A stretch of DNA of 44,067 bases from positions 1-44,067 of IMG/VR virus record IMGVR_UViG_2909303794_000010. One strand, written 5' to 3'. Below, piece after piece: positions 1,069 through 42,669 of this stretch (within the stretch, counting starts at the first letter, position 1; each line of letters begins with the position of its first letter). The DNA comes from a virus. Its lineage: Duplodnaviria > Heunggongvirae > Uroviricota > Caudoviricetes. Below the pieces are notes generated by a model. That model worked only from the letters and a program-made list of their open reading frames with translations. It searched no databases and was not told the origin of the DNA. The translations under genes were made by a program, and so were the position numbers.

Positions 1069-1231
1069 GTGTATAGAATTCCAAAATCGAACAGGAACAT
1101 ATACATAATCCTATACACATTTAGTACTGGATTCTACTGGAAGGTTATGGACTAACACGGACAACGATAACAAAAAATCTTTTATAAAACAGTATGCTTA
1201 TGGACAAATACGGACGTTTGAAGAAGTTGGG

Positions 1232-1278
1232 ATGGTGCCGATAATAGGAGTCGAACCTACGACCTTCGCATTACGAAT
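1232..1278. repeat. left att direct repeat: 47-bp copy of the tRNA-Thr 3' end
   Basis: Exact 47-bp identity with 42623-42669 (atggtgccgataataggagtcgaacctacgaccttcgcattacgaat); sequence diverges on both sides. Confidence 0.8.
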
Positions 1279-1854
1279 TATAAGAATCCGCTTCTAATTC
1301 AAAGCATTACCCCATCAACACTGCGCTCACACGTCCCACCACATCAAAACATGTAAAGCCTTGCAATCCATTGCGAGGCCTTATATGTCTCAGTTTTGTC
1401 CCACCTTGTATTACGACTTGCATAGCTAATGAAGATAAATGTGACGACAAACGGCGAAGCAGTCTTCTTTTCTTTCGCTGCTTCCCCACACCCAGCATGC
1501 ATACCTTTCCGTCATAACTGAAGTGAATGTCAGTTATGAGCGAGAAGCAGACATTTACTTAACTGGATAGCAAGAGACTTCATACTACAGCTCATACATC
1601 ATGGTTGAGCCAAGAGTTTTCAGTAATGGAAAGACATTGCCCACATGATCGTACCGTAACCACATTAGAAGCAGGTGCACTTTGCGAATTCTGATTGTTT
1701 CAACCTATCGGTTTTGAATTTTTTATAAAAAATATTCGCAAATTTGTGAATTATGAGAGACAAACGAGCATGGACAACCTATGTTACTTTCATACACAAT
1801 GAAGCAACATGATAAAAATACACTGACTTTAGTAAGTAAATTTAGGAGATTGCG

Positions 1855-3189
1855 ATGTTTAGCTTAATCATGGCCGGAGAACCGGACGTTTTTGACCGCT
1901 GGCCGTGTATGGATCCTAAGCTTAAAGAAGGCAAGGATAGCTTCTCGATGTCCCGCATGCTAGAAGGCACCCCAAGCGATATTTACAGTAAATTAACACC
2001 AATAAGACCTGATACCTTAAGAGAACTCGCCAAGCTACCGGTGTTGTTCATGACCGAAACTTATACAAAAGATGATGAATATGATACAAACAAGTACATC
2101 AGGATCAGGCTTGGGGAAATAAAAAATTTACATAAAGATGGTGGCGATATTTTATTTTCTTTCAAGATTAATCATGATTTTGGAGAAATAACAAACCCCC
2201 AAACGGCATTATATAAAGAAACCCTGGGACTAGGAGCTTTCGGGTTAAGTCGTACACATTGGGCAGTAAAAGATAAGGATTTGAATATTGTTCTGGAATG
2301 GCTTGGTTTAAACAAGAAAAATAACCATTCGAAAGGTACAATCAAATTAAAAAAACAAACATACCCAGTAGCCGAGAATATCATAGATTATCTTAATTTT
2401 ATTAAGAAATACCATCATGATGGTCTCATTACCTTTTATCGTGGACACTCTAAAAGCTCATATGAGCTTGTCCCCTCTCTTTACAGAAAAAATCAAAACG
2501 GGACGTACAGGCATCTTGCTTCAGAATCTGATTTAGTACGTGAAATACTCAGCGCAAGACCAAATGAATTTAAGGAGGATAAATTTACGATTGATAAACT
2601 TGTCCGCATGCAGCATTATGGCTTGCCTACGAGACTCCTAGATATTACATCTAACCCACTGATAGCATTATATTTTGCTTGCTGTTCGAACCCCGATGAA
2701 AACGGACAGGTGATTTCGTTTTCAACAAACAGAAAGAAAATTAAATATTTCGACTCAGATACAGTTAGCTGTATAGCAAACTTATCACTTTTATCTTACG
2801 ATGAGCTGGAAAAATTGTCATCCATTGATGCCAGAAAAGGTACTACAGAGGTATCTGAAATCACTGATAAACTTGCGGACCTTATACAGAATGAAAAATC
2901 ATATTTCAGAAGCAGAATAATTCCTGATGACTTAAAGAAAGTTGTTTTCCTTAAGGCTAAAATAAATAATGAACGCATACAGTCTCAGGCTGGCGCCTTT
3001 CTTCTGTTCGGACTTGATCCAATTTTGCCGGAAACAGATGCTGAGTTTCCTCTTAACAGACTCGAGATAACAAACAAAAATAAAATTCTGGAAGAGCTGG
3101 CGCAGCTTAATATATCCGAAAGCACTGTATACCCCAGCATGGAGAAAACGGCAGCGGAAATTACAAAAAAGTTTTTATCGGTATCATAA
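1855..3189 (+). CDS. FRG-domain protein (444 aa) with an unassigned N-terminal region of ~190 aa
   Basis: Motifs FYRGHS ... VRMQHYGLPTRLLDITSNPLIALYFAC match the FRG-domain signature as I recall it. RBS AGGAGA 6 nt upstream of the ATG. AT-rich. Confidence 0.6.
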   Translation: MFSLIMAGEPDVFDRWPCMDPKLKEGKDSFSMSRMLEGTPSDIYSKLTPIRPDTLRELAKLPVLFMTETYTKDDEYDTNKYIRIRLGEIKNLHKDGGDILFSFKINHDFGEITNPQTALYKETLGLGAFGLSRTHWAVKDKDLNIVLEWLGLNKKNNHSKGTIKLKKQTYPVAENIIDYLNFIKKYHHDGLITFYRGHSKSSYELVPSLYRKNQNGTYRHLASESDLVREILSARPNEFKEDKFTIDKLVRMQHYGLPTRLLDITSNPLIALYFACCSNPDENGQVISFSTNRKKIKYFDSDTVSCIANLSLLSYDELEKLSSIDARKGTTEVSEITDKLADLIQNEKSYFRSRIIPDDLKKVVFLKAKINNERIQSQAGAFLLFGLDPILPETDAEFPLNRLEITNKNKILEELAQLNISESTVYPSMEKTAAEITKKFLSVS

Positions 3190-3390
3190 AGGGATAAACT
3201 AAAGGCAACGAAAACCAAGACTGCACAGTCTTCAAGGTGGAACTACTCATCAGGGGGCGGTTTCAGACTCAGGGTGAAAAATCGGAAGCTTCAGTGGCCT
3301 TGAACCACCCCCTATAAATTAACATATCTCAATGTTATCAATGTCTGCTTTTAGCACTGAAAGGACAAGCTAACAGAGTGCAGGTCCGGT

Positions 3391-4881
3391 GTGAGTGAAA
3401 GCAATATAAATCATTTACAAACCTCAGAGGATAGAGAATTGTTTACACTATTGTCATTTAACATTACACACAAAGAAAATGAAATATATGATTGTATATT
3501 TACAGATAATCAAAGGCATATACGAAATCTTCCGTTGAGTAGTATTGTTATTGGCGAAAATGGTTCTGGTAAAAGTTATTTGCTATCTCAGATCGCAGAT
3601 TTCTTTAGATTTATTCAAAGAATCATAAGCAAAGAAAAGAAACCATATTACAAATATGAATCTGCATCAGTTTCATATTTGATTGATTCAAACTTAATCG
3701 TTATAAAAAAGGACAGAAATAAGGTTTTGTGTTTTGTTAATGATGTTCCATCTAATATATTCAATGTAATATTACCAACTAAAGTAATAGCTATGTCCTT
3801 TATGGTTAATGATAAGTTTTCTTTTTCGAGGTTCGAGGAAGACGATTTTTATGATTATCGTGGAGTTAGAGCGACGTCTAATGCTTCTTATACTAGTACA
3901 ATTAAAAGAATGATAACCAACTCATTAATATTGTCGATAGGCTATAGAGATAAACTAAAGGCGGTAAAAGATACTTTGCATTTTTTGGGCATGAGTGAAA
4001 AATTAGCTATTACTTACAATCTCAACAGGAAAACTTTATTAAAAAAACAACCACCACTTAACACCATACTAAAAAAAATAGATGCAATTTTGCGACGAAA
4101 GCAGTACGTTAATGAGAATGATCTTTATAAAATTAAAGAAAATCCAGAAGTCATACTTCATGATATAGCTGTTTTGAGCGAAGAATGCAAGGAGAAAAAT
4201 AGTAGAATACATCTTACCCTTGACCTTAGTGATGAAGGGGGAGTTGTTAAAAAATCATTATTCCAGTCTTTATCACGCTTGGAAAAATTAGAGTTTATTT
4301 CTAACCCTGACGTTGAATTCTACAAAAAAGATAATTTTTCATTTGAAGAAACTAGTTCTGGTGAAAAGAATATTATTTTTACCATTCTTAATTTAATTGC
4401 AAGCATCAAAAATAACTCATTGCTTTTAATTGATGAGCCAGAATTGAGCTTGCACCCTACCTGGCAAATGAAATACATAAATTTCATAAAGAAATCAATA
4501 GCTTATAATTTTGACTGTCACCTTATATTTGCATCACATTCACATTTTATGGTGTCGGATTTAGAATCAGAATCCTCATCACTAATATCTATAAATCAAT
4601 GTAATGGGAAAAGAATATGTGAGCACATTGAATATAGCACATATGCTTGGTCCGTAGAAAATATACTGTACAAGGTTTTTCATTTACGTACCATTAGAAA
4701 TGCTCAAGTCGAAATGGATCTTTATGAATTATCAGGTCTCATATCTCAAAAAAGCTCAGATATTAAGAGAATGGAGGAAATCCTTACGCATTTGGAAAGG
4801 ATAGTGTTAGATGTAAACGATCCCTTAAATATGATAATAGAACAAGCTAGAATCTATATTGGTGGCTACCATGATAAATAA
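3391..4881 (+). CDS. P-loop ATPase of the AAA_15/AAA_21 (OLD/ABC-like) type, Septu PtuA-like
   Basis: Walker A GENGSGKS and Walker B-like LLLIDEPELSLHP; ~496 aa; start is GTG at 3391 with a weak RBS. Confidence 0.65.
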   Translation: MSESNINHLQTSEDRELFTLLSFNITHKENEIYDCIFTDNQRHIRNLPLSSIVIGENGSGKSYLLSQIADFFRFIQRIISKEKKPYYKYESASVSYLIDSNLIVIKKDRNKVLCFVNDVPSNIFNVILPTKVIAMSFMVNDKFSFSRFEEDDFYDYRGVRATSNASYTSTIKRMITNSLILSIGYRDKLKAVKDTLHFLGMSEKLAITYNLNRKTLLKKQPPLNTILKKIDAILRRKQYVNENDLYKIKENPEVILHDIAVLSEECKEKNSRIHLTLDLSDEGGVVKKSLFQSLSRLEKLEFISNPDVEFYKKDNFSFEETSSGEKNIIFTILNLIASIKNNSLLLIDEPELSLHPTWQMKYINFIKKSIAYNFDCHLIFASHSHFMVSDLESESSSLISINQCNGKRICEHIEYSTYAWSVENILYKVFHLRTIRNAQVEMDLYELSGLISQKSSDIKRMEEILTHLERIVLDVNDPLNMIIEQARIYIGGYHDK

Positions 4882-5488
4882 AATCACTAATGACATCTAT
4901 ATGCCACCATTCATAATGAATAAGATAAACTCGTTTAAACCTTTTGTGGGTGGTAGCTGGGATAGAAAAGATAAAGCGATTATTATTTTTAAACGGTTAT
5001 TGAGAAAGCAGCTATTAACAGCACAGAATAATTGTTGTGCATACTGTGGATTACCATTAGGTGAAACAGGAAAAACAGAAATTGAACATTTGGTTGCAAA
5101 AGGTGGACCTAAAAGGCCAAAGCATATAGAATTTACTTTTGAAGTTGAAAATCTTTATTTATCATGCAATTTATGTAATAGCCCTTTGAAAAAAGGCACT
5201 AAAGAAACCCTTATTTATAAAGATCCCATCTCATACTCTAACTGTACTTTTAGTATTGTACATCCTAGATATGACACACCTAATTTGCATTATTCATGGG
5301 TTGTAAGCGCTGTAGAGGTTCTCATACAAGGAATTACCGACAAAGGTCGAGAGAGTATTAAAATGTTTAAACTTGACTCCCCCCCTCATAATGAAGCACG
5401 TGCTAGAATAGAAATGTTAAGGAGATATAAAATGCTCATTAACTCTCCACAAATTGATCAGATAAATGCAGCCCTTCGATATAATTAA
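4871..5488 (+). CDS. HNH endonuclease, Septu PtuB-like
   Basis: CCAYCG...EIEHLVAK...NLYLSCNLCN HNH/zinc-ribbon motif. The ATG at 4871 overlaps the upstream stop (ATGATAAATAA), implying translational coupling; the ORF track's 4859 start is a TTG. Confidence 0.65.
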   Translation: MINKITNDIYMPPFIMNKINSFKPFVGGSWDRKDKAIIIFKRLLRKQLLTAQNNCCAYCGLPLGETGKTEIEHLVAKGGPKRPKHIEFTFEVENLYLSCNLCNSPLKKGTKETLIYKDPISYSNCTFSIVHPRYDTPNLHYSWVVSAVEVLIQGITDKGRESIKMFKLDSPPHNEARARIEMLRRYKMLINSPQIDQINAALRYN

Positions 5489-5491
5489 CAA

Positions 5492-5519
5492 ATGAAGCCA
5501 CTGCAATAGGTGGCTTCAT
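5492..5519 (+). terminator. candidate intrinsic terminator after the HNH gene
   Basis: 10-bp inverted repeat atgaagccac / gtggcttcat with an 8-nt loop, followed by a short T-containing tract. Confidence 0.45.
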
Positions 5520-5822: not shown

Positions 5823-6377
5823 TCATTTATCTCCGTTCGGAAACTTCTTATACAGTGTCGATATACCAACATCATAGATGATCGCCACCTTCTGGCGAGG
5901 AACGCCTGATGCAATTAATCGCCCGGCCTGCGCCCATTGTTCTGGTGTAAGTTTGGGACGACGTCCACCAATTCGTCCCTGTGCGCGAGCAGCTTCCAGT
6001 CCAGCTTTTGTTCGTTCAACAATCAGTTCACGCTCCATTTCAGCCAGGGCCCCCATCACATGAAAGAAAAAGCGCCCCATTGGGGTACTGGTATCAATTG
6101 AATCCGTCAGACTACGAAAGTTAATGCCTCGTTCGCGCAACCCCTCCACCAGCACGACAAGATGCCGCATACTGCGCCCCAGTCGGTCCAGTTTCCAGAC
6201 CACCAGCGTGTCACCTGCCGATAATGTCCTGAGCAGTTTTTTCAGTCCTGGTCTGTCGGACTTAGTGCCACTGATCTTATCTTCAAAAATCAGCTCACAT
6301 CCTGCACACTCCAGCGCATTACGCTGCAATTCCGTATTCTGGTCATTTGTTGATACGCGGACATAGCCAATAAGCAT
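5823..6377 (-). CDS. serine DNA invertase of the Gin/Pin/Hin family
   Basis: MLIGYVRVSTNDQ...LVVWKLDRLGRSM...GRFFFHVMGALAEMERELI matches Mu Gin closely from memory. Start taken at the MLIGYV Met with AGGGGA RBS; the ORF track start at 6422 is probably too long. Confidence 0.9.
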   Translation of the reverse strand: MLIGYVRVSTNDQNTELQRNALECAGCELIFEDKISGTKSDRPGLKKLLRTLSAGDTLVVWKLDRLGRSMRHLVVLVEGLRERGINFRSLTDSIDTSTPMGRFFFHVMGALAEMERELIVERTKAGLEAARAQGRIGGRRPKLTPEQWAQAGRLIASGVPRQKVAIIYDVGISTLYKKFPNGDK

Positions 6378-6434
6378 GAGCATTCCCCTGAGTAAAAACC
6401 GGGGATGATGCCAGTTAGCCATAATCTCTGCATT

Positions 6435-6460
6435 TTCTTAAACGTTGGTTTGGGAGAAGG
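6435..6460. repeat. gix-like inversion crossover site (left)
   Basis: ttcttaaacgttggtttgggagaagg is an inverted copy of 8303-8328 (13-bp perfect core ggtttgggagaag); it sits ~60 bp from the invertase start and inside the tail-fibre reading frames. Confidence 0.7.
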
Positions 6461-6896
6461 CTCTGCATTACCTGTTGGTGTCCCTGTTCCGTGGCCTTCA
6501 GCTACGCCGCCAACAGGCTGGCTGAAATGCAATGGCGCTGCCTTTGATAAGGTTAAATATCCCCGTCTTGCTACAGCATATCCATCAGGGAAACTACCTG
6601 ATCTCCGCGGTGAGTTTATTCGTGGCTGGGATGATGGGCGCGGCATTGATACAGGGCGTGCTTTATTGAGTATTCAGAGTGATGAAGTCAGAAAGCTCGC
6701 ATTAAAATACTGGGGACCAGCTTCAAACAGTTCACCATCAAAAACATTTGCACTCAGCGACAGTGCCGGTGGCGGGTTGTACACGGATGGAATAAGTCAG
6801 GCAAGCGGTGGGATTATCAACGCTTTTCAGCTCCCTGGCGGTAACGAAACCCGCCCACGAAATGTTGCATTTAACTATATCGTGAGGGCTGCATAA
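6435..6896 (+). CDS. alternative tail-fibre C-terminal segment (silent orientation; needs inversion to fuse to the constant N-terminal part)
   Basis: Tail-collar-like motif LPVGVPVPWPSATPPTGWLKCNGAAF...LPDLRGEFIRGWD; shares the N(V/L)GLGE junction with the expressed fibre at the crossover site. Confidence 0.6.
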   Translation, partial: FLNVGLGEGSALPVGVPVPWPSATPPTGWLKCNGAAFDKVKYPRLATAYPSGKLPDLRGEFIRGWDDGRGIDTGRALLSIQSDEVRKLALKYWGPASNSSPSKTFALSDSAGGGLYTDGISQASGGIINAFQLPGGNETRPRNVAFNYIVRAA

Positions 6897-7498
6897 TGGA
6901 TAATGCTGTATTAAATAGCGAGTTTATTGCCACGAAGGCGGGGAATATTACCGTCTATAACTATGATAGTGAAACACGGGAATATATTTCCACATCAACT
7001 GAATATCTTGCTGTGGGGGTCGGTATTCCAGCATGTTCCTGTCTTGATGCACCTGGCATACATAAGGTTGGTTATGCAATCTGTCGTTCTGTGAATTTAA
7101 ATTCATGGGAATATGTGCCAGACCATCGCGGTGAAATCGTCTATAGCACAGAAACAGGAGAATCAAAAGAAATCACAGCTCCGGGTGATTACCCTGAAAA
7201 TACAACCACTATCGCCCCTTTATCTCCATACGATAAATGGGATGGTGAGAAATGGGTGACCGATACTGAGGCACAGCATAGCGCCGCAGTCGAAGCGGCA
7301 GAAGCACAGCGCCAGTCGCTGATTGATGCTGCTATGGCTTCCATCAGTCTGATTCAACTGAAATTGCAGGCCGGACGGAAACTGACGCAGGCAGAAACAA
7401 CCCGACTTAACGCCGTGCTGGATTACACTGACGCGGTGACGGCAACAGATACCAGCACCGCGCCGGATGTCATCTGGCCTGAACTGCCGGAGGCGTAG
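6896..7498 (+). CDS. tail fibre assembly chaperone (alternative copy)
   Basis: C-terminal ...TSTAPDVIWPELPEA typical of Tfa proteins; follows the alternative fibre segment. Confidence 0.7.
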   Translation: MDNAVLNSEFIATKAGNITVYNYDSETREYISTSTEYLAVGVGIPACSCLDAPGIHKVGYAICRSVNLNSWEYVPDHRGEIVYSTETGESKEITAPGDYPENTTTIAPLSPYDKWDGEKWVTDTEAQHSAAVEAAEAQRQSLIDAAMASISLIQLKLQAGRKLTQAETTRLNAVLDYTDAVTATDTSTAPDVIWPELPEA

Positions 7499-7913
7499 GC
7501 CATTCAATATCGGGGGCTGTTGAAGTATCAACACGCATCAGCAGCACACGGTATTTCTTCCATTGGGTGAGAGTTGAAGTTTCTTCATCAGTTGCAATGC
7601 CCGCATCAACAGCATCCTGACGCCAGGATATTTCACTGTCAGCTTTTGCACGAAATGTGGCTTTCATGTTTTCTGCATCTGATATTTTCTGTTCTGGTGA
7701 AAGCGGCGGCTCATCAACCCATGCAAGGGCCCCTGAAACCATTCCCAGCATTTTTCCTGTTGGCTTATTTCCCCCATTAAATCTGACAGCATCCTCATCG
7801 CTGATTTCAATACCATCCTGCGGCCATGTCCCCTCCTTGATATAACTTTCGTATAGCGCTGCGTTGTAGATTGCATTTTCGGAAGGGCTGTAAACACTTT
7901 TAACTTTATTCAT
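7470..7913 (-). CDS. tail fibre assembly chaperone
   Basis: C-terminal ...TSTAPDIEWPTPP; convergent with and overlapping the alternative copy, as in Mu/P1 invertible segments. Confidence 0.7.
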   Translation of the reverse strand: MNKVKSVYSPSENAIYNAALYESYIKEGTWPQDGIEISDEDAVRFNGGNKPTGKMLGMVSGALAWVDEPPLSPEQKISDAENMKATFRAKADSEISWRQDAVDAGIATDEETSTLTQWKKYRVLLMRVDTSTAPDIEWPTPPAVQAR

Positions 7914-7917
7914 TCTG

Positions 7918-8598
7918 TTATCTCCCTTTCGCTATATAGCAAAGATTAAACCCACCGCTACCTGACATACGGGCTGTAAAACCCGTTCTTGAAGTACCAG
8001 TTGAGTTAACTCCATAAGCAGGCATGGTTGTTGGAGAAAGCAGAGACTCCTGGATATCTGCCATTGTCAGTGTAATTGATTCGACCCGCGCGGGGAAAGG
8101 TAGCGGGAAAACAACATTCGTCCCTGTCTGTCCAACGGGGAAACCGAAAATACCCCATTGTGTAATTACCCCATCCGGCCCCTTACTCCATCCAGATTTA
8201 GGATTCGGCCAGTCTGCTGCTCCAGAGTGCCCCGTTGTAAAACTACTCATATCTGGTACTTGCCCGGTATCCGTTCCGACGTTCCTCGTTGCCGCTTCTC
8301 CCAAACCAAGGTTTTCGAGAGCCGTTTTCACCGTGCCGTCCGATTTGATATCGCCAAACGGATTCTTGCGGCTTAACAGCAGCGCACGAAGCGCGGTAAG
8401 CAGCTGGTCATGCCGCCCCTTCTCCAGGCTGGCACCGGACGCCTCCACCACGCTACAAAGTTCTTCCTGCAACATATCAAAATAGTCATCATCCAGATCG
8501 GTGGCAGGTGTGCCGGTCTGGGGGTTACCACGGGTAAAACCGTTCTTACCCGCGCCGAACTTATCCTTCTGCGCGGTTTTCGTGTCTATGCGATGCAT
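7918..8598 (-). CDS. tail fibre protein (constant N-terminal part plus currently joined variable C-terminal part)
   Basis: Position after the baseplate genes; the crossover site lies in frame at residues ~94-101 (LENLGLGE). Confidence 0.7.
8303..8328. repeat. gix-like inversion crossover site (right)
   Basis: Inverted copy of 6435-6460. Confidence 0.7.
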
Positions 8599-11195: not shown

Positions 11196-12274
11196 CAGAA
11201 CGGGTCCTCCTGTACTCTGGCTTTTTTCTTTTTCCGCGCGCCGGGGGCTTCGGGTTCAGGCAGATAAGCATCAGGTGGGCCGACACGGATTTCCGTCAGG
11301 GTGCCGTTCTGGTCCTGAGTAAACGTGACTTCCGAGACAAGCAGTTCGGTATTGTCGAAACCACAGACCGGATCGAAGACAATCACCCGCTGGTTGGGCT
11401 GCCACAGCGTACCGTTACCCTGTCGCCAGCCCTGCACCACATAGGTGGTTTCATCCGTCCGCGCCGCCCGTTGTCGGGCTTCAAAGTCAGCACGCGCAAT
11501 ACAGCCTGCCCCCGTAGCCTGCCCTGTCTGCCTGATATACATCGGACGGTAACGGGCAATAAATGCGTCCTCTGTGCGGGCCCGCAGCGCAGTTGTGGTG
11601 GCCTCACCGAAATCATCGTCGTTTCCGGCACGCTGCCCCGCCACCTGGTAAACAGAAAACCGCTCCCGGATACTCTTCTCCGTATCGCAGGAAAGGATGT
11701 TTTCCCCGAGTACCAGCGCGGTATGTGCCCGCGTTGAGCCAATACCGCCAATCACCAGCCTGCCGTGCGGGTCGTCATAAGCCAGCGCCTGCTGCTGACC
11801 GAGTATTTTGTTAATCACCTCGATCACCGTTTCACCGTGATCAGGCTGGACATCAGGAATAACACCCGACGGCGCACCGCTGTTCACCACCTCAATGCCG
11901 AAGGGCGCAGCAAGCGCCTGCGCAATCTGTACCAGTGATCGTCCGTTAAACTGTGTCGGTTCGGCTGCACAATCAATCAGGTCAGCGGTCAGACTGCGTC
12001 CGGCAATACCGGTGCTGACCGAACGGGCATCGTAACGAACGGGCGTCGCCTCCACCCAGCCGGTGATCACCAGCTCATCACCAATCAGCACCTCCACTTT
12101 TGAACCGTTTTTAATGCGCGGCTGAAGCGTGGTGATACCCTCATCACCCGGCCACTGGCGGGTGATCTCCACACTGAAATCCCGCGCCAGTCGTTCAACA
12201 CCGGCACCGATGCGCACCGATGTCCAGCCATTCCACTCCCGGCCATTTACCCGTAGCGTGACATTGTCGTTCAT
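11195..12274 (-). CDS. tail protein (Mu gp44 / P2 gpD-like)
   Basis: Position between the DNA circularization protein and the baseplate genes. Confidence 0.55.
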   Translation of the reverse strand: MNDNVTLRVNGREWNGWTSVRIGAGVERLARDFSVEITRQWPGDEGITTLQPRIKNGSKVEVLIGDELVITGWVEATPVRYDARSVSTGIAGRSLTADLIDCAAEPTQFNGRSLVQIAQALAAPFGIEVVNSGAPSGVIPDVQPDHGETVIEVINKILGQQQALAYDDPHGRLVIGGIGSTRAHTALVLGENILSCDTEKSIRERFSVYQVAGQRAGNDDDFGEATTTALRARTEDAFIARYRPMYIRQTGQATGAGCIARADFEARQRAARTDETTYVVQGWRQGNGTLWQPNQRVIVFDPVCGFDNTELLVSEVTFTQDQNGTLTEIRVGPPDAYLPEPEAPGARKKKKARVQEDPF

Positions 12275-13641
12275 TGCACTGGCACCTTCAGAGGGATCAC
12301 CGGCACAAAGCCGGGATGCGTAATGGCATTACGCCGGATAATGTCCGCATCACGCGCCGCGTTATCAAACCAGGTCGCCGCCAGCACCAGCGCGGGTAAA
12401 ACCTCATCCGGTGTGCGCTGAATGATCCGTGCAGACTGTTCAAGGCGCGTGTTGATATCCGCATTCAGATCTGCTTTCACCCGGCGCAGTGCCAGAAACA
12501 GCGCATCACTGGTTGTACGGGACAACTCCTTATCAATTGCCGTATTCAGTGTGTCGCGAATGTCAGTCAGTTCTTCCCACGTTGGCAGGTCAACCGTGTT
12601 TTTCACCGCCGGTGCATTGTTCAGTGCCGGATGCGTGACGGAAGGCCAGCCAGTGCTCTGCGCAGGTGTTGTTGCCTGCCCCACTGCGGCATTCTGCATC
12701 ACCGCGGAAGTTGTTGGCGCAGGCAATCGGGTGACGGCATACGCCGCTTCGCTGATTGCGGTCGTACGAAGGGTGCTGGCAACCTCGTTACGCTGATGCG
12801 TCGCCGTGGCGGTGGTTTTACTGTCCGTTTTCCAGACGCCGCGCGGTTGCAGATCGCTGCCGAGGCTGACACCGGAAAGCGTTTTGATCATGGTGACCAG
12901 GTCGCTGGCGTTACCATAAAGGCGTTTCCCGGTACGCCACATTTTCTGCACCTGCTCAACGAAATTTTTGCCTGACGATGGTGGCGGCAGAAGTACCGAG
13001 ATATCCCCCTGCAACAGCCTGGCAGCATCCGATACGGCAGAATCCACCACTTTCATCGCATCAGAAACATACCCAAGCATTGTGCCGGCATTACCGACGA
13101 CGTCGTTCTGCACAAAATCCGCCACGCCATCGATACTGAAACCGCTGAAGCTGTCACTGATGCAGTCATCCAGTGCAGAACAGGATGACATCAGCGTCTG
13201 CGCCGTCGCCGCACCTGATGTGGGGTAAGAGAGTTCTCCCGCTTCGACAAACTTCAGGTCAAAGCGGACAATACGCCCTTCACTCTTCGATGTGCTGACC
13301 CGAACCTCTCCGTCAACACAGACTTTCAGCTCACCGTAAGTCGGATGGACAAGCGTGCCGGGACCGGGTTTATTCAGCGCGTCAATCAGGCGATCGCGCT
13401 GGTCAAAGCAGTCATCTCCCACCACATAAGCCGTGATGGACGGGCGGAAAGTGATTTTCCCCAGGTCTTCGGTATAGGGTTTGTCGCGGTTCGGGTATTC
13501 GTGCGTTTCCACACGACGACCGGTTCCCGCACTTTCTTCTTCAACCTTAAACGGCACACCGCGAAATGACGCGTCCTGAAGTCTGTCTTTCCACGTCATA
13601 TAAACTCCGTACATAAAAAATCCCACCGGAGTGGGACTCAT
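12271..13641 (-). CDS. DNA circularization protein N-like (Mu gp43-like)
   Basis: N-terminus WKDRLQDASFRGVPFKVEEESAGTGRRVETHEYPNRD resembles the Mu N family; immediately downstream of the tape measure. Confidence 0.6.
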   Translation of the reverse strand: MSPTPVGFFMYGVYMTWKDRLQDASFRGVPFKVEEESAGTGRRVETHEYPNRDKPYTEDLGKITFRPSITAYVVGDDCFDQRDRLIDALNKPGPGTLVHPTYGELKVCVDGEVRVSTSKSEGRIVRFDLKFVEAGELSYPTSGAATAQTLMSSCSALDDCISDSFSGFSIDGVADFVQNDVVGNAGTMLGYVSDAMKVVDSAVSDAARLLQGDISVLLPPPSSGKNFVEQVQKMWRTGKRLYGNASDLVTMIKTLSGVSLGSDLQPRGVWKTDSKTTATATHQRNEVASTLRTTAISEAAYAVTRLPAPTTSAVMQNAAVGQATTPAQSTGWPSVTHPALNNAPAVKNTVDLPTWEELTDIRDTLNTAIDKELSRTTSDALFLALRRVKADLNADINTRLEQSARIIQRTPDEVLPALVLAATWFDNAARDADIIRRNAITHPGFVPVIPLKVPVQ

Positions 13642-13659: not shown

Positions 13660-15495
13660 TTACCTGCCAAAGCGCGTATAGCCAACATCATGGCTGACAT
13701 CAAAACCGCTGGATCGCGTTTCCATAACCCGCATACCCGGAGGCGAATTCACAAAAGAGACCTTGATCTCACCATCAACTTTTGGCGCAGAAGCTTTGTT
13801 AATCATGAAGGGATTCGGGCCTGTGGCACCGGAGGCGTTGTTTGACTGAGCCGGATCCACCGCCGGATAAGGTGTGTATCCCCGCGCCGGTATTCCCGTC
13901 CCATAAGCATCATAAGCACCCGCGCCCCACTGCGCCGAGTTAATGGCATCGACCGTGTCACCGGAACTGTCGGTAAACCACTCAATAATTGGCTTCAGCT
14001 TGTCCCACATATCCTGAAACCACTTAACAACCGGCCCCCAGTTATTGATCACCATCCCCAGCGGCGACCAGGCAAAAACTTTCTTAAGGAGTTCCCAGCC
14101 AGCCTCAAAATAAGGACCAATGGTTTCCCAGAGCTTCTTGAAATAAGGTCCGACAACATCCCAGTTAGTGATAATTAATCCCGCAGCCAGGGCTATCGCC
14201 GTCGCAATCATGCCAATCGGCGTCATCGACATGATCCTGCTGACAATACTGATGGCACTGCCCACGCCCATCAATCCCAGTTTCAGAATCGCAAGACCGG
14301 CAGCAAGCCCGACGACGCCGCGAATAACCCGGGGATTTTCATCCGCAAACTTCGTGAATTTTTCCCCCAACTCCCCCAGCCATTGCGTGATATTTTTGGC
14401 GTCACCAGAAAATGCGCCGCCAATAGCCGCAAGGCCGTTAGTTGCGGTCCCCGTCATTGCCTCCCACAAGTTGGACAGCGTACCAAGCTGGGCCTGAACA
14501 CGTTTATTCAGGCTGGCCTGTTTATTCATCTTCTGCTGGATCTGATCGTAGCCATCCTTTCCTTTATCGATCAGAGCATTGACCACCTGAAGGGTTTCGG
14601 CATCATCACCAAATATTGCCTTAAGTACACCTGTTCGCTTAACGTCGGTCAGTTTTCGCAGCTTTGCCAGTTGCTTAAACATGTTATCAAGACCGCCAAA
14701 ACTCCCTTTGCTGTCAGTAAAATCGAGCTGCACTCCGAGTTTCTGGCGGGCCATAACTTTATTAACGTCCCTGATTTTCTTAACGCTTAATCCGGACTGG
14801 ATAACTTTTCGCAGGGCATTACCTGCCGACTCCCCGTTCATCCCCATCTGATCCATCATGACGCTGATAGGGGCAAGGCTCTGTGCAGCCTGAAGACCGT
14901 CCTTGTTCACCATCTTCAGAACAGAACTGGTTTTAGTGAAGAAGGACAACATGTTGGTATCGTCAACGCCCAGATAAAACGCCTTCTGGATAGTGTCGAA
15001 CAGCCCCATCATGTCTTCTGACGCCGTTCCGGTAGCATCCTGCATCTTTGCAGCAAACTCAGCAGCCGCTTCCGGTGTTTTTTTCAGTTGTACCGCAAGA
15101 TAAGCTGTCGCTTTACCCACACCGCCCAGAATGTTTTCTGCCGGGATCCCCTGACGCACCAGCATCTGCATCATGTTCTGGAAATCAGCCGTTGTACCGG
15201 GTAGCTGGTTACCCAGGCCAATAGCCAGTTTATTGATGTCCTGAAAGCTCTTTCCAACCTCGCCGTTCGCATCCATCATGGCGACTTTCAGCCCGGTGGC
15301 GGCGTTTTCCTGATCGGCATAAGATTTCAGGGAAAGCGTCAGACCCGCAGCTAGTCCGCCACCAAGCGCCAGCCCACCCTGTGACGCTTCTTCCGCCTGG
15401 CGTTTAAATCCCCGGATTTTCTTTTGCATTTTCGACAGCGCGGGAGAAAGCCTGTCGACACCGGTGATCAACGCCTTAAGCTCAAATTCAGCCAT
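13660..15495 (-). CDS. tail tape measure protein
   Basis: 611 aa, Ala/Gly-rich and helical with hydrophobic segments; follows the tail chaperone pair. Confidence 0.8.
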   Translation of the reverse strand: MAEFELKALITGVDRLSPALSKMQKKIRGFKRQAEEASQGGLALGGGLAAGLTLSLKSYADQENAATGLKVAMMDANGEVGKSFQDINKLAIGLGNQLPGTTADFQNMMQMLVRQGIPAENILGGVGKATAYLAVQLKKTPEAAAEFAAKMQDATGTASEDMMGLFDTIQKAFYLGVDDTNMLSFFTKTSSVLKMVNKDGLQAAQSLAPISVMMDQMGMNGESAGNALRKVIQSGLSVKKIRDVNKVMARQKLGVQLDFTDSKGSFGGLDNMFKQLAKLRKLTDVKRTGVLKAIFGDDAETLQVVNALIDKGKDGYDQIQQKMNKQASLNKRVQAQLGTLSNLWEAMTGTATNGLAAIGGAFSGDAKNITQWLGELGEKFTKFADENPRVIRGVVGLAAGLAILKLGLMGVGSAISIVSRIMSMTPIGMIATAIALAAGLIITNWDVVGPYFKKLWETIGPYFEAGWELLKKVFAWSPLGMVINNWGPVVKWFQDMWDKLKPIIEWFTDSSGDTVDAINSAQWGAGAYDAYGTGIPARGYTPYPAVDPAQSNNASGATGPNPFMINKASAPKVDGEIKVSFVNSPPGMRVMETRSSGFDVSHDVGYTRFGR

Positions 15496-15906
15496 GTGTG
15501 CGTTTCTCCTGCTCTATCCTGTTTGCCTGACTGACCAGCAAGGGAATTTCACTGATCGGCATATTCAGCAATTCGAAGGGATTAATGCGCCAGTAACTGG
15601 CGCAGTCAAAGAAGCGATCAGTGAGGTATTCAGCCGTCAGGCCTGGAGGAAAAAACCGGCCACAAGCCACGCCGCTGCATTCAGGTCTGCCGGAGACATC
15701 TGGTCGACAGAGCTTTGCGGCACTTTCGCCAGCCGCACAATGTATTTCGACACCACATGCGCCAGAAGTCTGACGGACTCATCCTGATTCATCTGGTAGG
15801 GATACCCCAGCTCGCGGACATCTTTCCCGGTGGGTTCATCAAACTCCAGTACGGAGAGTGTCTCGCCATGAGCAATAATCGGTTTCTTTAACTCAAGCTC
15901 TTTCAT
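15488..15906 (-). CDS. tail assembly chaperone pair with predicted programmed -1 frameshift (short form 15637-15906; extension to 15488)
   Basis: Slippery TTTTTTC in codons GGT TTT TTC (revcomp of 15649-15655) near the end of the short ORF; the -1 frame ORF extends to just before the tape measure start. Confidence 0.55.
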
Positions 15907-16262
15907 TACTGGTAATCCCCTTCTTCACCGTGGAACTCAAGATCGACCGTGCCTTCTTCGGCATTATGGTTCGCTTCACCGTGCAGCCAGGCGGACGACA
16001 ATACATAGACCTGACCGTTCGCCAGCTCGGCAGTGATGGTCATCTCATCAGACGAGGTGATTTTGCTCACCGGAAAATTCTTCGGCACCTTGAAGGTCCC
16101 TTTGACATAAGGCGCACGGTGAGTTTCCTTGCGGTCCACTGAACCGTCCAGGCCGATGATGTCATCATTGACCGTCCTGTTCATGGGCACCTCAATGCCG
16201 CCGGTCAGCGATAGCTGCTGACCGTCAATTTTGAAATAACAGGTTCCCCCGATACGGGCCAT
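15906..16262 (-). CDS. contractile tail tube protein
   Basis: 118 aa, immediately downstream of the sheath gene. Confidence 0.65.
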   Translation of the reverse strand: MARIGGTCYFKIDGQQLSLTGGIEVPMNRTVNDDIIGLDGSVDRKETHRAPYVKGTFKVPKNFPVSKITSSDEMTITAELANGQVYVLSSAWLHGEANHNAEEGTVDLEFHGEEGDYQ

Positions 16263-17758
16263 TATGCAGACTCCTCTGAATACTGAAGACGGAACTGGTT
16301 AACCACGGCAAAGACACGCAACTGGTTAACATAGTCAGGTGGGAACAGCGTGTTCAGGCGGTTCGGATCGCTGGCATCACGCTCCACAACCAGGTACTGC
16401 TTGAACAGTTCGTAGTTTTCCACGATCCCCGCACGCTCGAGCTGACGGTAGGTTGCCAGCAGTTCCCCTTTGATCACTGCCGGGGTGACAATCGCCTGAC
16501 CGGGACCAAAGCGGGTACCGTCACTGGCAAGCTTGTGACGCCCGTACTTACTGGTAATGACGGATTTCAGTTTGCGCAGTACATACGCACTGGTATGCAG
16601 CGTCTCGCTGTCGAGGTAGCTGTTATCCGCAACCCCGTAAGCGTTTTTCCTGTACGTGGTGACATCACGCTGAATGCGCAGTACCCCGCTTTCGACATAC
16701 GCCGTTGCCACGCCATGAGACAGCAGGGTCTGTTGTTCGGTCATCGTGAACCGTTTCCCCTTCGGCGCAGGCAGCATACCCACCAGCTCACCGGTCTGCG
16801 TGGGACGTGCCGGATCGTTGCGGATAAACACTGCTGCGCGGGCGGTACGGCTTGCCGCCAGCTCGTCGGCAGGCGTCTGGGTCTCTTTTTCGTACCCCGC
16901 CAGGGTGATGTGCTGCTGGTTAAACTGGTCACCTGCGTTCACCAGTTCTGACAGTGTGCCGGTCTTTGCCGTATACACATGACCATACAGCTGACGCGCA
17001 TAGCTCCAGCGACCGCTGGTATCGTTCATCTCGGTCACCAGCGTGTTAACGGAGGCCGTGTCGTTGAACGGCAGGCCGATATAATCAAACGGCTCATCCG
17101 CCATTGCAGCCACCGCGCCAGTGAGAACAGGAGAGCCCGTTCCGGCGGTCCCCGTCGCCACGGCAATCTGTACGCCCGCAGGCAGCACTTCGCCCCCACC
17201 AAAGCCGTAGTAATTGAGGCTGACAGGAATTTCATTCCCGCAAAGCCCCTTATGACGCGCGGTCAGTGTGACCACGCCTGCCGAAGATGAGGCCGTAAAC
17301 GGCAGGGCCGGAACGGCATTGATGGCATCTTTGATACTGCTGGCAATCGTCGCGACGTTATCGCCATTGGTCACCGGTGCCTGCACGCGGGTACGTCCCA
17401 CATAAACATTCACCGTGCCGGTTTCGGTTGCCGCCCCGGTCACCGTCAGCGTAACTGTTGCTGCCGCGCCCGTGGATTCAGGAACGGCAATCACATACAG
17501 CTCACCAAACGGGTCGGTCTGGCGATAAGCCTCGACCATACGCGCCAGCTGACTTCCCGCACCACAAATCTGGCGTGCATAGTCTGCCGACGGCATCAGC
17601 ACCAGACTGTTGGCAACAATCTCTGCACCGTTATTGGCATGACCAATCAGCAGCGATGCTCCGCTGTCCTGTGCAGTATTCGCAGCCTGGTTATCCATTT
17701 CCGCATAAAACAGCGGAACCAGCGTATTCGACGGAATGGTGTTAAAGCTTATCGTCAT
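16262..17758 (-). CDS. contractile tail sheath protein
   Basis: 498 aa, upstream of the tube gene. Confidence 0.8.
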   Translation of the reverse strand: MTISFNTIPSNTLVPLFYAEMDNQAANTAQDSGASLLIGHANNGAEIVANSLVLMPSADYARQICGAGSQLARMVEAYRQTDPFGELYVIAVPESTGAAATVTLTVTGAATETGTVNVYVGRTRVQAPVTNGDNVATIASSIKDAINAVPALPFTASSSAGVVTLTARHKGLCGNEIPVSLNYYGFGGGEVLPAGVQIAVATGTAGTGSPVLTGAVAAMADEPFDYIGLPFNDTASVNTLVTEMNDTSGRWSYARQLYGHVYTAKTGTLSELVNAGDQFNQQHITLAGYEKETQTPADELAASRTARAAVFIRNDPARPTQTGELVGMLPAPKGKRFTMTEQQTLLSHGVATAYVESGVLRIQRDVTTYRKNAYGVADNSYLDSETLHTSAYVLRKLKSVITSKYGRHKLASDGTRFGPGQAIVTPAVIKGELLATYRQLERAGIVENYELFKQYLVVERDASDPNRLNTLFPPDYVNQLRVFAVVNQFRLQYSEESA

Positions 17759-25924: not shown

Positions 25925-26074
25925 TGCATAATCCTCTTGGATGGTTCGCGTGCGATACGTGGCATCCTTCTCAGAATCGAATCGCACTCCACTCCGGTTT
26001 TGCCATAAACGATCTTTTATGCTTCGCTGGATGTAGTTGATAGTTGTTGAAACTCAATGAACAGGAGTTCACAA

Positions 26075-26410
26075 ATGAATAGTTATGAATGGGAATGGCT
26101 TTTAAACAAAGATGACACCCTATGCTTTTTCCCCGTAGGCCATTCTGTAGAAGGTAATTACAAAATTCACTTTGAGTTGAGCGGTAGTTGTAACCTTAGA
26201 GTCTCAGATGCTGAATGGCATGGTAAACCTGTACTGCTGTTCGAATACTTCGATGAAGATGATGACCGCCCTGCAATAATCGAAATATTAGAAACAACCA
26301 CTACAACTGTGGAGGCGATGATCGCACATCTGAATAGTATCGATAGTATTTACCATGAACCGATTTACAAAGCGGTTTACGAGTGGGCCGTAAAGTTTTT
26401 CTATCGATGA
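26075..26410 (+). CDS. hypothetical acidic protein (111 aa)
   Basis: RBS AGGAG 7 nt upstream of the ATG at 26075; acidic stretch EYFDEDDDRPAIIEILE; antisense to the late operon; AT-rich. Confidence 0.5.
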   Translation: MNSYEWEWLLNKDDTLCFFPVGHSVEGNYKIHFELSGSCNLRVSDAEWHGKPVLLFEYFDEDDDRPAIIEILETTTTTVEAMIAHLNSIDSIYHEPIYKAVYEWAVKFFYR

Positions 26411-26453
26411 TAGTTCGTTATCTTGCTGGCATTCACAATACCTTTACATACTA

Positions 26454-27080
26454 ATGACATGCCAGCACAATACTGTCACTTACAACCGTTCGGATTACCT
26501 AGAGAAAAGTATGATTCAGGATTTACTGATCGAAGCAATTAGTCACGATAGGATGCATAAAAAGTTAAATGAACTGAATTGCTACTTCTACAATCGCAAA
26601 CATGAAACTCAAATACGTGATGAGTTAGTTGTTATTCTCAATCAAATCAGCACACTAACTGCTTTAAGTGAGCATCCAAAACTCGGTATCGGCGCTGTTG
26701 ACATATCACTTTATAACCAGTCGATATTAACGTCTGAACATAATGGCAATGTTGCAACCATCGAGATTAAACACCATTACCCAAAGGATTTACTTTATCG
26801 GCAAGTTCAAGAAGACATCATTTCCGATATTTCAAGAGTAATAGTTTCACCAACTACACACTTTATCCATATAATCCAGCAAAGAACCAAGATTAAAACT
26901 CCTTCTTTTGGTCAAGTGAAATTCCTTGAACGTGATGCAAGTGATATCAGCACTTATGTGCAATGTCTTGAGGAGCTAAGTTCATTTCCCAGTAATTTTC
27001 ATAAAAAAAGTGTATGTATTGAGGTACTTGGTGAAATTATGTCGACATATACCTTTAACGTATATTCATTTGACAACTGA
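26454..27080 (+). CDS. hypothetical protein (208 aa; alternative start 26511)
   Basis: Long ORF co-oriented with the preceding gene; no recognisable motifs. Confidence 0.45.
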   Translation: MTCQHNTVTYNRSDYLEKSMIQDLLIEAISHDRMHKKLNELNCYFYNRKHETQIRDELVVILNQISTLTALSEHPKLGIGAVDISLYNQSILTSEHNGNVATIEIKHHYPKDLLYRQVQEDIISDISRVIVSPTTHFIHIIQQRTKIKTPSFGQVKFLERDASDISTYVQCLEELSSFPSNFHKKSVCIEVLGEIMSTYTFNVYSFDN

Positions 27081-29943: not shown

Positions 29944-30041
29944 GACATACCAATAACTCTTGTCTAAAAAGCCAGCAAGATAAAAAGTCAGTATTCACGA
30001 CCACCAGCGTGTTTACTGTACTGCACCAAGTTTACAGGTAC

Positions 30042-30066
30042 AAAAAAACCGCTCAGCGGCGGGTTT
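30042..30066 (-). terminator. candidate short intrinsic terminator (possible tR'-like site of the late promoter region)
   Basis: Short GC hairpin ccgc-NNN-gcgg followed by seven T on the minus strand. Confidence 0.3.
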
Positions 30067-30111
30067 AAGTTGTGTGGCGAAGTAACCACTCTTAACACGA
30101 TACAATAGTTT

Positions 30112-30140
30112 TTGCGTACGCGTTAGTGGTTATGTAAACT
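30112..30140 (+). promoter_or_regulatory. candidate sigma70 promoter for the antisense two-gene unit
   Basis: TTGCGT - 17 nt - TAAACT about 40 nt upstream of the ATG at 30180. Confidence 0.3.
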
Positions 30141-30179
30141 TTCTCCATATAAAAACAGCAAAGAAGCGGATATTTTGAA

Positions 30180-31208: not shown

Positions 31209-31215
31209 GGCTAAT

Positions 31216-42609: not shown

Positions 42610-42622
42610 CTTATTGATTTAA

Positions 42623-42669
42623 ATGGTGCCGATAATAGGAGTCGAACCTACGACCTTCGCATTACGAAT
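42623..42669. repeat. right att direct repeat (within the tRNA 3' end)
   Basis: Identical to 1232-1278. Confidence 0.8.

What the first reader, a model, noticed from the sequence alone, without database searches (positions are those of the whole stretch)
15488..15906. Programmed -1 frameshift in the tail assembly chaperone pair
Seen in sequence: slippery heptamer T-TTT-TTC in the zero frame near the end of the 89-aa chaperone ORF, with the -1 frame extending ~50 codons to the start of the tape measure gene. Established knowledge: this is the conserved G/GT-type chaperone arrangement of long-tailed phages. It confirms the module assignment and is not novel.
Basis: partly seen in the sequence, partly recalled or inferred. 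Interest (0 to 1): 0.2.

Follow-up and report, generated by a model that had tools for sequence, protein, structure and literature searches.

The report
Tail chaperone -1 frameshift, P2-type
An SfV-like E. coli prophage makes a short and a long tail-assembly chaperone from one start codon, most likely by a -1 ribosomal slip on U UUU UUC, which is an ordinary, well-known phage device that public annotations of this phage group leave out.

Summary
On the minus strand, the 89-aa chaperone ORF (15906..15637) carries an in-phase T TTT TTC at 15655..15649. The -1 frame then runs 53 more codons to a stop at 15490..15488, overlapping the tape-measure start (15495) by 8 nt. The predicted fusion is 139 aa.

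The heptamer alone is weak evidence (about 1 in-phase heptamer per 226 codons here). The comparative evidence is strong:
- Twelve sequences from nine diverged lineages keep NNT TTT TTN in phase, although the preceding amino acid varies.
- All keep the -1 frame open to the tape-measure start.
- The extension is under purifying selection only in the -1 frame (dN/dS 0.05-0.31).
- It has no conserved start codon.

This is a contractile, Mu-like tail module. The chaperone is PF10109, the family of P2 gpE, whose E/E+E' -1 shift at TTTTTTG sits at the homologous position. It is a functional analogue of lambda G/GT, not a sequence relative. Mu itself is reported to use -2.

No stimulatory RNA structure was found. 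None of the 14 records of this chaperone type inspected annotates the shift, and the region occurs in 917 of 5,426 complete E. coli genomes. Low interest: an ordinary, unannotated member of a known kind.

The parts
15637..15906 (-). Zero-frame tail assembly chaperone (short product, 89 aa, gpE-like)
   Evidence: ORF. PF10109 Phage_TAC_7 at E 2.4e-15, 56.7 bits against a cutoff of 25. phrog_166 'tail protein' at E 4e-23. PGAP names it 'phage tail assembly protein'.
15649..15655 (-). Slippery heptamer T TTT TTC (U UUU UUC in the mRNA), in phase; P-site codon UUU, A-site codon UUC
   Evidence: The homologous in-phase T TTT TTN is present in 12 of 12 compared sequences from nine diverged lineages. 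The preceding codon always ends in T although its amino acid varies (G, R, N, S, P, D). 78 of 80 closely related IMG/VR loci have an identical T6 run.
15488..15649 (-). -1-frame extension: 53 codons plus TGA. Base 15649 is read twice. It has no usable start codon of its own.
   Evidence: phrog_32181 (unknown function) at E 4e-40. dN/dS is 0.05-0.31 in this frame against about 1-3, with stops, in the other two. No conserved start codon or SD. Only 11 protein clusters in 5.8 billion contain it, all named 'hypothetical'.
15488..15906 (-). Predicted frameshift fusion product, 139 aa: join(15906..15649, 15649..15488) on the minus strand; junction ...WLVAGFF|PPGLTAEY...
   Evidence: tblastn finds both halves in two frames in phages down to about 40% identity. 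Two contigs with a 1-nt insertion encode exactly this protein as a single ORF.
13660..15495 (-). Tape measure protein gene (611 aa); its ATG overlaps the stop of the -1 extension by 8 nt (ATGGCTGA)
   Evidence: PF10145 at E 3.5e-27. phrog_28 and phrog_17727 'tail length tape measure'. The same overlap is present in all enterobacterial relatives.
15906..16262 (-). Tail tube protein gene (118 aa), immediately upstream; context
   Evidence: PF10618 at E 2.4e-33; phrog_185.
16262..17758 (-). Tail sheath gene (498 aa); context, shows the tail is contractile
   Evidence: PF04984, PF17482 and PF17481; phrog_165 at E 3e-232.

Best explanation
This is a programmed -1 ribosomal frameshift in the tail assembly chaperone gene of an SfV-like temperate myovirus, which has an HK97-type head and a Mu-type contractile tail. 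Most ribosomes read the 89-aa chaperone to its TGA at 15639..15637. A minority slip while tRNA-Phe occupies both the P site (UUU) and the A site (UUC) on G GU UUU UUC. Both tRNAs re-pair one base back on UUU UUU, and translation continues in the -1 frame for 53 codons. The result is a 139-aa protein with the same N-terminal 86 residues plus a new C-terminal domain. By analogy with lambda gpG/gpGT and P2 gpE/gpE+E', the shared N-terminal domain is inferred to coat the tape measure protein. The frameshift-only domain is inferred to recruit the tube protein so that the tube, and then the sheath, polymerise around the tape measure. The slip frequency would fix the many-to-one ratio of short to long form, and neither form would end up in the virion. 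Shown here: the sequence anatomy, family membership of the N-terminal domain, conservation of the slip site at the nucleotide level, coding selection on the extension, and the absence of an independent start. Inferred: that the slip occurs, its efficiency (probably a few percent or less, because no stimulator was found), and the binding partners.
For: The anatomy is exact. The module is sheath, tube, PF10109 chaperone, tape measure. P2 gpE hits the same Pfam model, and the P2 record annotates a -1 shift in GGT TTT TTG at the homologous position, with 91-aa and 142-aa products against 89 and 139 aa here (PMC3091744, citing Christie 2002 and Xu 2004). Twelve sequences compared (window, SfV, EPP-1, AH07, SfIV, F1055, phiP27, BgVeeders33, DVM-2008, PG1, PBb002, P2; ST64B and As1 carry the same site as F1055) all have in-phase NNT TTT TTN and a -1 frame open to the tape-measure start, whereas the zero-frame tail after the site varies from 5 to 23 codons. 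Taking nine of these as independent lineages, the synonymous choices inside the heptamer are fixed with a naive P of about 6e-8. The extension has dN/dS 0.05-0.31 in the -1 frame only. No start codon is conserved; SfIV, F1055 and phiP27 have none before codon +31 to +50. Without the shift a 141-nt gap would remain in an otherwise overlapping operon. UUN A-site codons and all-pyrimidine heptamers are among the more shift-prone in E. coli (PMC4066793).
Against: There is no direct evidence that the fusion protein is made in this phage. No significant or conserved downstream stem-loop was found (z = -1.4; folds differ between lineages). No SD-like stimulator was seen in the 30 nt upstream displayed for each lineage (judged by eye, not scanned), and no Rfam element was detected. 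In reporter assays, heptamers without stimulators shift at well under 1% (PMC4066793), so the efficiency may be very low. Sequence homology of the extension to P2 E' (PF06528) could not be demonstrated. The lineages compared are related, so the P-value overstates independence.
Confidence: 0.9

Rival explanations
1. The downstream ORF is a separate small gene, translated from its own start (GTG at 15670) as a 60-aa protein, as annotated in GenBank ON470584.
For: the ORF listing reports a 60-aa GTG-initiated ORF at 15488..15670. ON470584 annotates it as a separate 'hypothetical protein'. A few database entries call it likewise.
Against: There is no SD-like sequence upstream of the GTG. The start is not conserved: AH07 has no start before codon +10, and SfIV, F1055 and phiP27 have none before +31 to +50, which is downstream of the conserved (F/Y)W(R/K)(I/L/V)(N/D)P motif. 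The conserved feature is instead the in-phase heptamer. Gene callers find this ORF in only 11 clusters of 5.8 billion proteins.
Confidence: 0.03
2. The long form arises by transcriptional slippage. RNA polymerase adds one extra U in the T6 run, giving an mRNA subpopulation in which the extension is in frame. The protein would be identical to the ribosomal-shift product.
For: The site is a homopolymer of 6 T (7 in the SfIV/ST64B/phiP27 lineage). A +1-nt mRNA gives the same ...GFFPPGL... protein, as the 1-nt-insertion contigs L014 and L015 show.
Against: From my own knowledge, efficient slippage by bacterial RNA polymerase generally needs runs of about 8-9 or more, and this run is 6. The run is always held in the X XXY YYZ phase and bounded as NNT TTT TTN, as tandem tRNA slippage requires. 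The homologous P2 site is described as a translational frameshift (title of Christie 2002, cited in PMC3091744; annotation). I could not test this directly.
Confidence: 0.05
3. There is no recoding. The heptamer and the open -1 frame are coincidental, and the 141 nt between the chaperone and tape-measure genes are non-coding.
For: In-phase heptamers are frequent, about 1 per 226 codons. No stimulatory structure was found. No record annotates a shift.
Against: There is protein-level conservation and purifying selection specific to the -1 frame across lineages whose synonymous sites are saturated. The heptamer is conserved in position and phase despite changes in the neighbouring amino acids. 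The -1 frame always ends at the tape-measure start.
Confidence: 0.01

Closest known systems
Phage P2 gpE / gpE+E' (FETUD tail operon), -1 frameshift at T TTT TTG
   Same: The N-terminal Pfam family is the same: PF10109, 56.7 bits for the window and 47.8 bits for P2 gpE. Both lie between the tube and tape-measure genes of a contractile tail. Both have an in-phase GGT TTT TTN at the aligned ...GF(F/L) position. Product sizes are nearly identical (89/139 aa against 91/142 aa). In both, the -1 ORF ends overlapping the tape-measure start, and no downstream hairpin is found (PMC3091744).
   Different: The A-site codon is UUC (Phe) rather than UUG (Leu). The fusions are only 22% identical. The extension does not reach PF06528 (Phage_P2_GpE) and the profile comparison is not significant. 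The rest of the tail module is Mu-like (PF10618 tube, DNA_circ_N protein), not P2-like.
Phage lambda gpG / gpGT, -1 frameshift at G GGA AAG
   Same: The gene order is the same (tube-forming major tail protein, chaperone, tape measure). Both shift -1 near the 3' end of a small ORF to give a C-terminally extended minor product. Lambda makes the two forms in about a 30:1 ratio, and neither is in the virion (PMC5009743).
   Different: No sequence relationship was detected; only PF10109 was hit. The heptamer differs. Lambda has a non-contractile tail, whereas here a sheath gene is present. This is an analogue, not a family member.
Phage Mu gp41 (Mup41) tail assembly chaperone, reported -2 frameshift
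   Same: The tail module is homologous: sheath L, tube M (PF10618), chaperone, tape measure, DNA_circ_N. Mu gp41 hits PF10109 just below its gathering cutoff (24.7 bits against 25, E 2.5e-5).
   Different: Mu gp41 is 144 aa and belongs primarily to PF23746. It has no in-phase X XXY YYZ heptamer, and only its +1/-2 frame stays open to the tape-measure gene. Reviews state that Mu uses -2 (PMC5009743, PMC2628397). In the window the +1 frame closes after 2 codons.

Membership tests
PF10109 tail assembly chaperones (P2 gpE / 'E, 41 or 14' family) | N-terminal domain matches the family model above its curated cutoff | tested here: met
   56.7 bits against a cutoff of 25, E 2.4e-15, covering profile positions 2-78 of 79. 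P2 gpE scores 47.8 bits on the same model.
PF10109 tail assembly chaperones (P2 gpE / 'E, 41 or 14' family) | Gene lies between the tail tube and tape-measure genes of a contractile tail module | tested here: met
   Sheath 16262-17758, tube 15906-16262, chaperone 15637-15906, tape measure 13660-15495, all on the minus strand.
P2 E/E+E'-type recoded chaperone pair | [quoted passage not shown] | tested here: met
   T TTT TTC at 15655..15649, aligned with P2 T TTT TTG at the invariant F85/F86 columns.
P2 E/E+E'-type recoded chaperone pair | -1 ORF of about 50 codons without its own start, ending at or overlapping the tape-measure start | tested here: met
   53 codons, stop at 15490..15488 against tape-measure ATG at 15495. 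No conserved start or SD.
P2 E/E+E'-type recoded chaperone pair | Extension homologous to P2 E' (PF06528 Phage_P2_GpE) | tested here: inconclusive
   The window extension gives no PF06528 hit even at E up to 10. hhalign gives probability 2.6% and E 0.017. An HMM of SfV-type extensions scores about 0 bits on P2 E'. However, the aromatic-W-x-x-P-x-E-L motif aligns in register, and the Bordetella PBb002 extension links to P2 E' (BLAST E 7e-7 in a small set; PF06528 at E 0.0098, below cutoff).
P2 E/E+E'-type recoded chaperone pair | Both the short and the frameshifted long protein are made, and both are needed for tail assembly | not testable with these tools
   This needs proteomics or genetics. 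The only indirect support is purifying selection on the extension.
Lambda gpG/gpGT family | Sequence membership in a lambda-type chaperone family, within a non-contractile tail | tested here: not met
   The Pfam scan returns only PF10109, and a sheath gene is present. Only the gene order and the recoding logic are shared.
Mu gp41 type (PF23746, -2 shift) | Match to PF23746, and a +1/-2 frame open to the tape-measure gene | tested here: not met
   The window chaperone does not hit PF23746. Its +1 frame closes 2 codons after the stop. Mu gp41 shows the opposite pattern.

The most novel reading that the evidence does not exclude
The frameshift-only C-terminal domain of SfV-type chaperones (phrog_32181, motif (F/Y)W(R/K)(I/L/V)(N/D)P..E..ANRI) may be a protein family of its own. 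It is not detectably related to P2 E' or lambda T, can be expressed only by recoding, and is therefore absent from essentially all annotations (11 clusters in 5.8 billion proteins; unannotated in about 900 complete E. coli genomes). One homologous Mu-like tail module would then contain lineages that reach their extension by -1 on U6N and, according to reviews, by -2 in Mu, making it a natural system for studying how recoding signals are exchanged during evolution.
Probability: 0.3. Interest if true: 0.3.

Novelty: new member of a known kind. Interest (0 to 1): 0.12.

Why it matters
Scientifically this changes little. It is another instance of the textbook tail-chaperone frameshift, homologous to the experimentally characterised P2 E/E+E' case.

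The practical value is for annotation. The long product is missing from every record of this chaperone type that I inspected, including SfV, SfIV, ST64B and phiP27 in RefSeq and a PGAP-annotated E. coli genome. The locus occurs in about 17% of complete E. coli genomes. In one record the extension is mis-called as an independent hypothetical gene. A join(15906..15649, 15649..15488) feature with ribosomal_slippage would correct this.

It also shows that 'G/GT-type' should be read as an analogy. Within Mu-like contractile tails the recoding solution differs between lineages: -1 here, and -2 reported for Mu.

Tried and rejected
(1) Downstream stimulator. Folding 89 nt after the heptamer gave z = -1.4, and 101 nt spanning it gave z = +1.8. 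Predicted folds of the 60 nt downstream differ between lineages. The Rfam gathering scan found only the tRNA. I conclude there is no detectable stimulator.

(2) Upstream SD-like stimulator. None is evident in the 30 nt upstream shown. This was an inspection by eye, not a formal scan.

(3) Homology of the extension to P2 E'. hmmscan, hhalign and a custom HMM were all non-significant, so this is left as inconclusive.

(4) The search for related loci with the 8-sequence alignment failed because no sufficiently conserved stretch was available. The single-protein scan returned only near-identical loci, so diversity came from tblastn against phage records instead.

(5) Structure. The single-sequence AlphaFold model had pLDDT 59 and pTM 0.37, too poor for a fold search, so none was run.

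(6) The PDB sequence search with the fusion profile found nothing meaningful; the best hit had E 0.074 to an unrelated HNH protein.

(7) NCBIfam has no model hitting the short form, the fusion, or P2 E+E'.

(8) The experimental P2 paper (PMC135442) is not held. I could not consult Xu et al. 2004 (not in the searched library and no PMC id available), so I could not check whether SfV is listed there. No searchable paper links SfV or ST64B to this frameshift.

(9) The ST64B 'frameshift in the tail assembly gene' in PMC7067206 is reported as an inactivating mutation. The paper gives only locus tags, and I did not map them to this chaperone gene.

Full report
**What is there**

All genes in this part of the window are on the minus strand. 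Reading 5' to 3' on that strand:
- tail sheath, 17758..16262, 498 aa (PF04984, PF17482, PF17481)
- tail tube, 16262..15906, 118 aa (PF10618)
- an 89-aa ORF, 15906..15637 (PF10109 'Phage tail assembly chaperone proteins, E, or 41 or 14', 56.7 bits against a cutoff of 25)
- a 141-nt stretch with no annotated gene
- the tape measure gene, 15495..13660, 611 aa (PF10145)
- a DNA_circ_N hub protein, 13641..12271

This is a Mu-type contractile tail module. At the DNA level the region is 98-99% identical to Shigella/E. coli phages SfV, SfI, SfII and vB_EcoM-689R6. It is present in 917 of 5,426 complete E. coli genomes.

**Check of the observation**

The minus-strand sequence around the end of the 89-aa ORF is GCC GGT TTT TTC CTC CAG GCC TGA. 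TTTTTTC occupies 15655..15649. Its first T is the third base of the Gly84 codon, followed by TTT (Phe85) and TTC (Phe86). It is therefore an X XXY YYZ heptamer in the zero frame, five codons before the stop.

The frame that ends at 15488 is the -1 frame relative to the chaperone. After a -1 slip the ribosome would read CCT CCA GGC CTG ACG and so on, for 53 codons (PPGLTAEYLTDRFFDCASYWRINPFELLNMPISEIPLLVSQANRIEQEKRTHG) to TGA at 15490..15488. This overlaps the tape-measure ATG (15495) in the sequence ATGGCTGA. The predicted fusion is 139 aa. The +1 frame closes two codons after the zero-frame stop.

**Is it more than chance?**

The motif alone is not. In-phase heptamers occur 80 times in 18,075 codons of ORFs of at least 100 aa in this window. 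By my estimate, a heptamer in the last 10 codons together with a 53-codon open -1 frame has a joint probability of about 0.003.

The decisive evidence is comparative. tblastn with the predicted fusion finds both halves, in two different frames, in 30 phage records from ten genera, down to about 40% identity. I examined these relatives:
- SfV, Edwardsiella EPP-1 and Pantoea AH07 (TTTTTTC, 5 codons before the stop)
- SfIV, Salmonella F1055, ST64B and As1, and phiP27 (TTTTTTT, 23 codons before the stop)
- Burkholderia BgVeeders33 and Pseudomonas DVM-2008 (TTTTTTC, 12 codons before the stop)
- Pseudomonas PG1 and Bordetella PBb002 (TTTTTTG)
- P2 (TTTTTTG)

In every case the heptamer is in phase at the aligned position, and the -1 frame stays open to within 20 nt of the tape-measure start, overlapping it in the enterobacterial phages, PG1 and P2.

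The codon before the run encodes G, R, N, S, P or D in different lineages but always ends in T, and the first Phe codon is always TTT. Taking nine of these as independent lineages, the naive probability is about 6e-8. This is overstated because the lineages are related, but synonymous sites between them are saturated.

In the 141 nt downstream of the zero-frame stop, dN/dS is 0.05-0.31 in the -1 frame and differences concentrate at third positions. The other two frames give about 1-3 and contain stops. In the SfIV/ST64B/phiP27 lineage the zero frame continues for 23 codons over the extension, yet the selection signature is still in the -1 frame.

**Rivals**

Independent initiation of the downstream ORF is how ON470584 annotates it, but the evidence is against it. 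The window's GTG at 15670 has no SD. AH07 has no start codon before codon +10. SfIV, F1055 and phiP27 have none before +31 to +50, which is beyond the conserved (F/Y)W(R/K)(I/L/V)(N/D)P motif. In 5.8 billion predicted proteins the extension appears in only 11 clusters, all named 'hypothetical', as expected for an ORF without a start.

Transcriptional slippage would give the same protein and cannot be excluded computationally. However, the run is only 6-7 T and is always held in the tandem-slippage phase, and the homologous P2 event is described as translational (PMC3091744).

**Mechanism**

The most likely mechanism is tandem -1 slippage of the P-site and A-site tRNA-Phe from UUU UUC to U UUU UU. 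In E. coli, UUN A-site codons and all-pyrimidine heptamers are among the more shift-prone motifs, but without a stimulator the rates are low (PMC4066793).

I found no significant or conserved downstream structure, no evident upstream SD-like element (by eye) and no Rfam element. The same is reported for P2 and its relatives (PMC3091744). A low efficiency, giving a large excess of the short form, is therefore expected but not shown.

The functional roles are inferred from lambda G/GT (PMC5009743): the shared domain on the tape measure protein, the extension recruiting the tube protein, and neither protein in the virion. Consistent with this, Mu gp41 was not resolved in the Mu virion structure (PMC11915804).

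**Comparison with known systems**

The closest relative with an experimentally supported shift is P2 gpE/gpE+E'. It shares the same Pfam family for the N-terminal part, the same GGT TTT TTN context, the same product sizes (91/142 aa against 89/139 aa) and the same overlap with the tape-measure start.

The extension could not be shown to be homologous to P2 E' (PF06528), although a shared aromatic-W-x-x-P-x-E-L motif aligns and the Bordetella phage sequence is intermediate.

Lambda G/GT is a functional and positional analogue only.

Mu is the prototype of this tail module, but it differs. Its gp41 is PF23746, it lacks an in-phase heptamer, only its +1/-2 frame is open, and it is reported to use a -2 shift (PMC5009743, PMC2628397).

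**Novelty and verdict**

The only new point concerns annotation. None of the 14 records of this chaperone type that I inspected marks the slippage or the long product; a further record, Paraburkholderia phage IPK, carries no annotation at all, while the P2 record does mark its own shift. I found no searchable paper describing the shift for the SfV group. I could not consult Xu et al. 2004 to see whether SfV is listed there. I classify the finding as an unannotated member of a known kind, with interest about 0.1.

**Dead ends**

The alignment-based locus search failed. The single-sequence model was too poor to use, at pLDDT 59. The PDB and NCBIfam searches were empty.

Noticed in passing
L014:1495-1925 and L015:1495-1925 (IMGVR_UViG_2585427747_000001 and IMGVR_UViG_2585427730_000011), homologous to window 15488-15906: Two of 80 closely related viral contigs carry one extra G just 5' of the T-run (GCT GGG TTT TTT CCT). 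This fuses the chaperone and the extension into one 139-aa ORF that reads ...AGFFPPGL..., exactly the predicted frameshift product. The two contigs differ from each other by several SNPs. They could be sequencing errors, or defective prophages that make only the long form.
   Followed up: partly
window 15488-15906; L001-L010 and L094-L097: None of the 14 public records of this chaperone type that I inspected annotates the slippage or the long product: SfV, SfIV, ST64B and phiP27 in RefSeq, a PGAP-annotated E. coli genome, and nine GenBank phage records. ON470584 calls the -1 ORF a separate 'hypothetical protein'. The locus is in 917 of 5,426 complete E. coli genomes, so the annotation gap is systematic.
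   Followed up: yes
window 15488-15495 and the homologous positions in L001, L004-L009 and L097: The stop of the -1 extension and the tape-measure start overlap in the same octamer, ATGGCTGA, in all enterobacterial relatives. This suggests translational coupling of tape-measure initiation to ribosomes terminating there, or simply a conserved N-terminus (MAE/MAD).
   Followed up: no
L006-L009 and L097 (SfIV, F1055, ST64B, phiP27, As1), about locus 1446-1524: In this lineage the zero frame continues 23 codons past the heptamer as an acidic, Ser/Gly-rich tail (for example TGLETEESSGSDSTMSRGSGN) that overlaps the -1 extension. Read in the zero frame, the downstream stretch analysed (which covers most of this overlap) shows dN/dS above 1, so the C-terminal tail of the short form appears unconstrained.
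   Followed up: partly
L012:2553-3132 (phage Mu Mup41 to Mup42): Mu gp41 (144 aa, PF23746) has no in-phase X XXY YYZ heptamer. Only its +1/-2 frame is open (43 codons) towards the tape-measure gene, next to a CGG GGG CGA run, which fits the -2 shift reported in reviews. So the frameshift direction differs within one homologous tail module.
   Followed up: partly
window 5823-8320: A Gin/Hin-type serine invertase (5823-6422, minus strand; PF00239 plus HTH_7) sits beside 20-nt inverted repeats at 6440-6459 and 8295-8314 (95% complementary). These enclose oppositely oriented tail-fibre and fibre-assembly ORFs (for example 6896-7498 on the plus strand, PF02413). It looks like a Mu G-segment-type invertible host-range switch.
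   Followed up: partly
window 1-5500: A low-GC block (31-42%) beyond the tail genes contains several items. There is a second tyrosine integrase (1-1068, minus strand, possibly cut by the window edge). There is an FRG-domain protein matching PADLOC candidate system PDC-S15 (1855-3189, E 1.6e-98). There is also a Septu defence pair, PtuA (3391-4881, E 1e-170) and PtuB (4859-5488, E 8e-33). It is probably a separate integrative defence island abutting the prophage.
   Followed up: partly
window 41446-42699: tRNA-Thr(CGU) at 42624-42699 (minus strand) lies directly next to a tyrosine integrase (41446-42609, plus strand). This matches the threonine-tRNA integration site reported for SfV (PMC3091744). 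An aldehyde-dehydrogenase-family host gene follows at 42814-44067.
   Followed up: no
window 26000-27000 and 30000-32000: Two further low-GC patches (35-38% GC against about 55% in the structural genes) lie inside the prophage and carry plus-strand ORFs (26454-27080, 30180-31208, 31216-31791). They are possible moron or accessory genes and were not examined.
   Followed up: no
L008:1189-1524 (ST64B sb15, NC_004313): The RefSeq CDS for the ST64B chaperone starts at an ATT codon 9 nt upstream of the GTG used in the near-identical F1055 record. This is probably a mis-set start.
   Followed up: no
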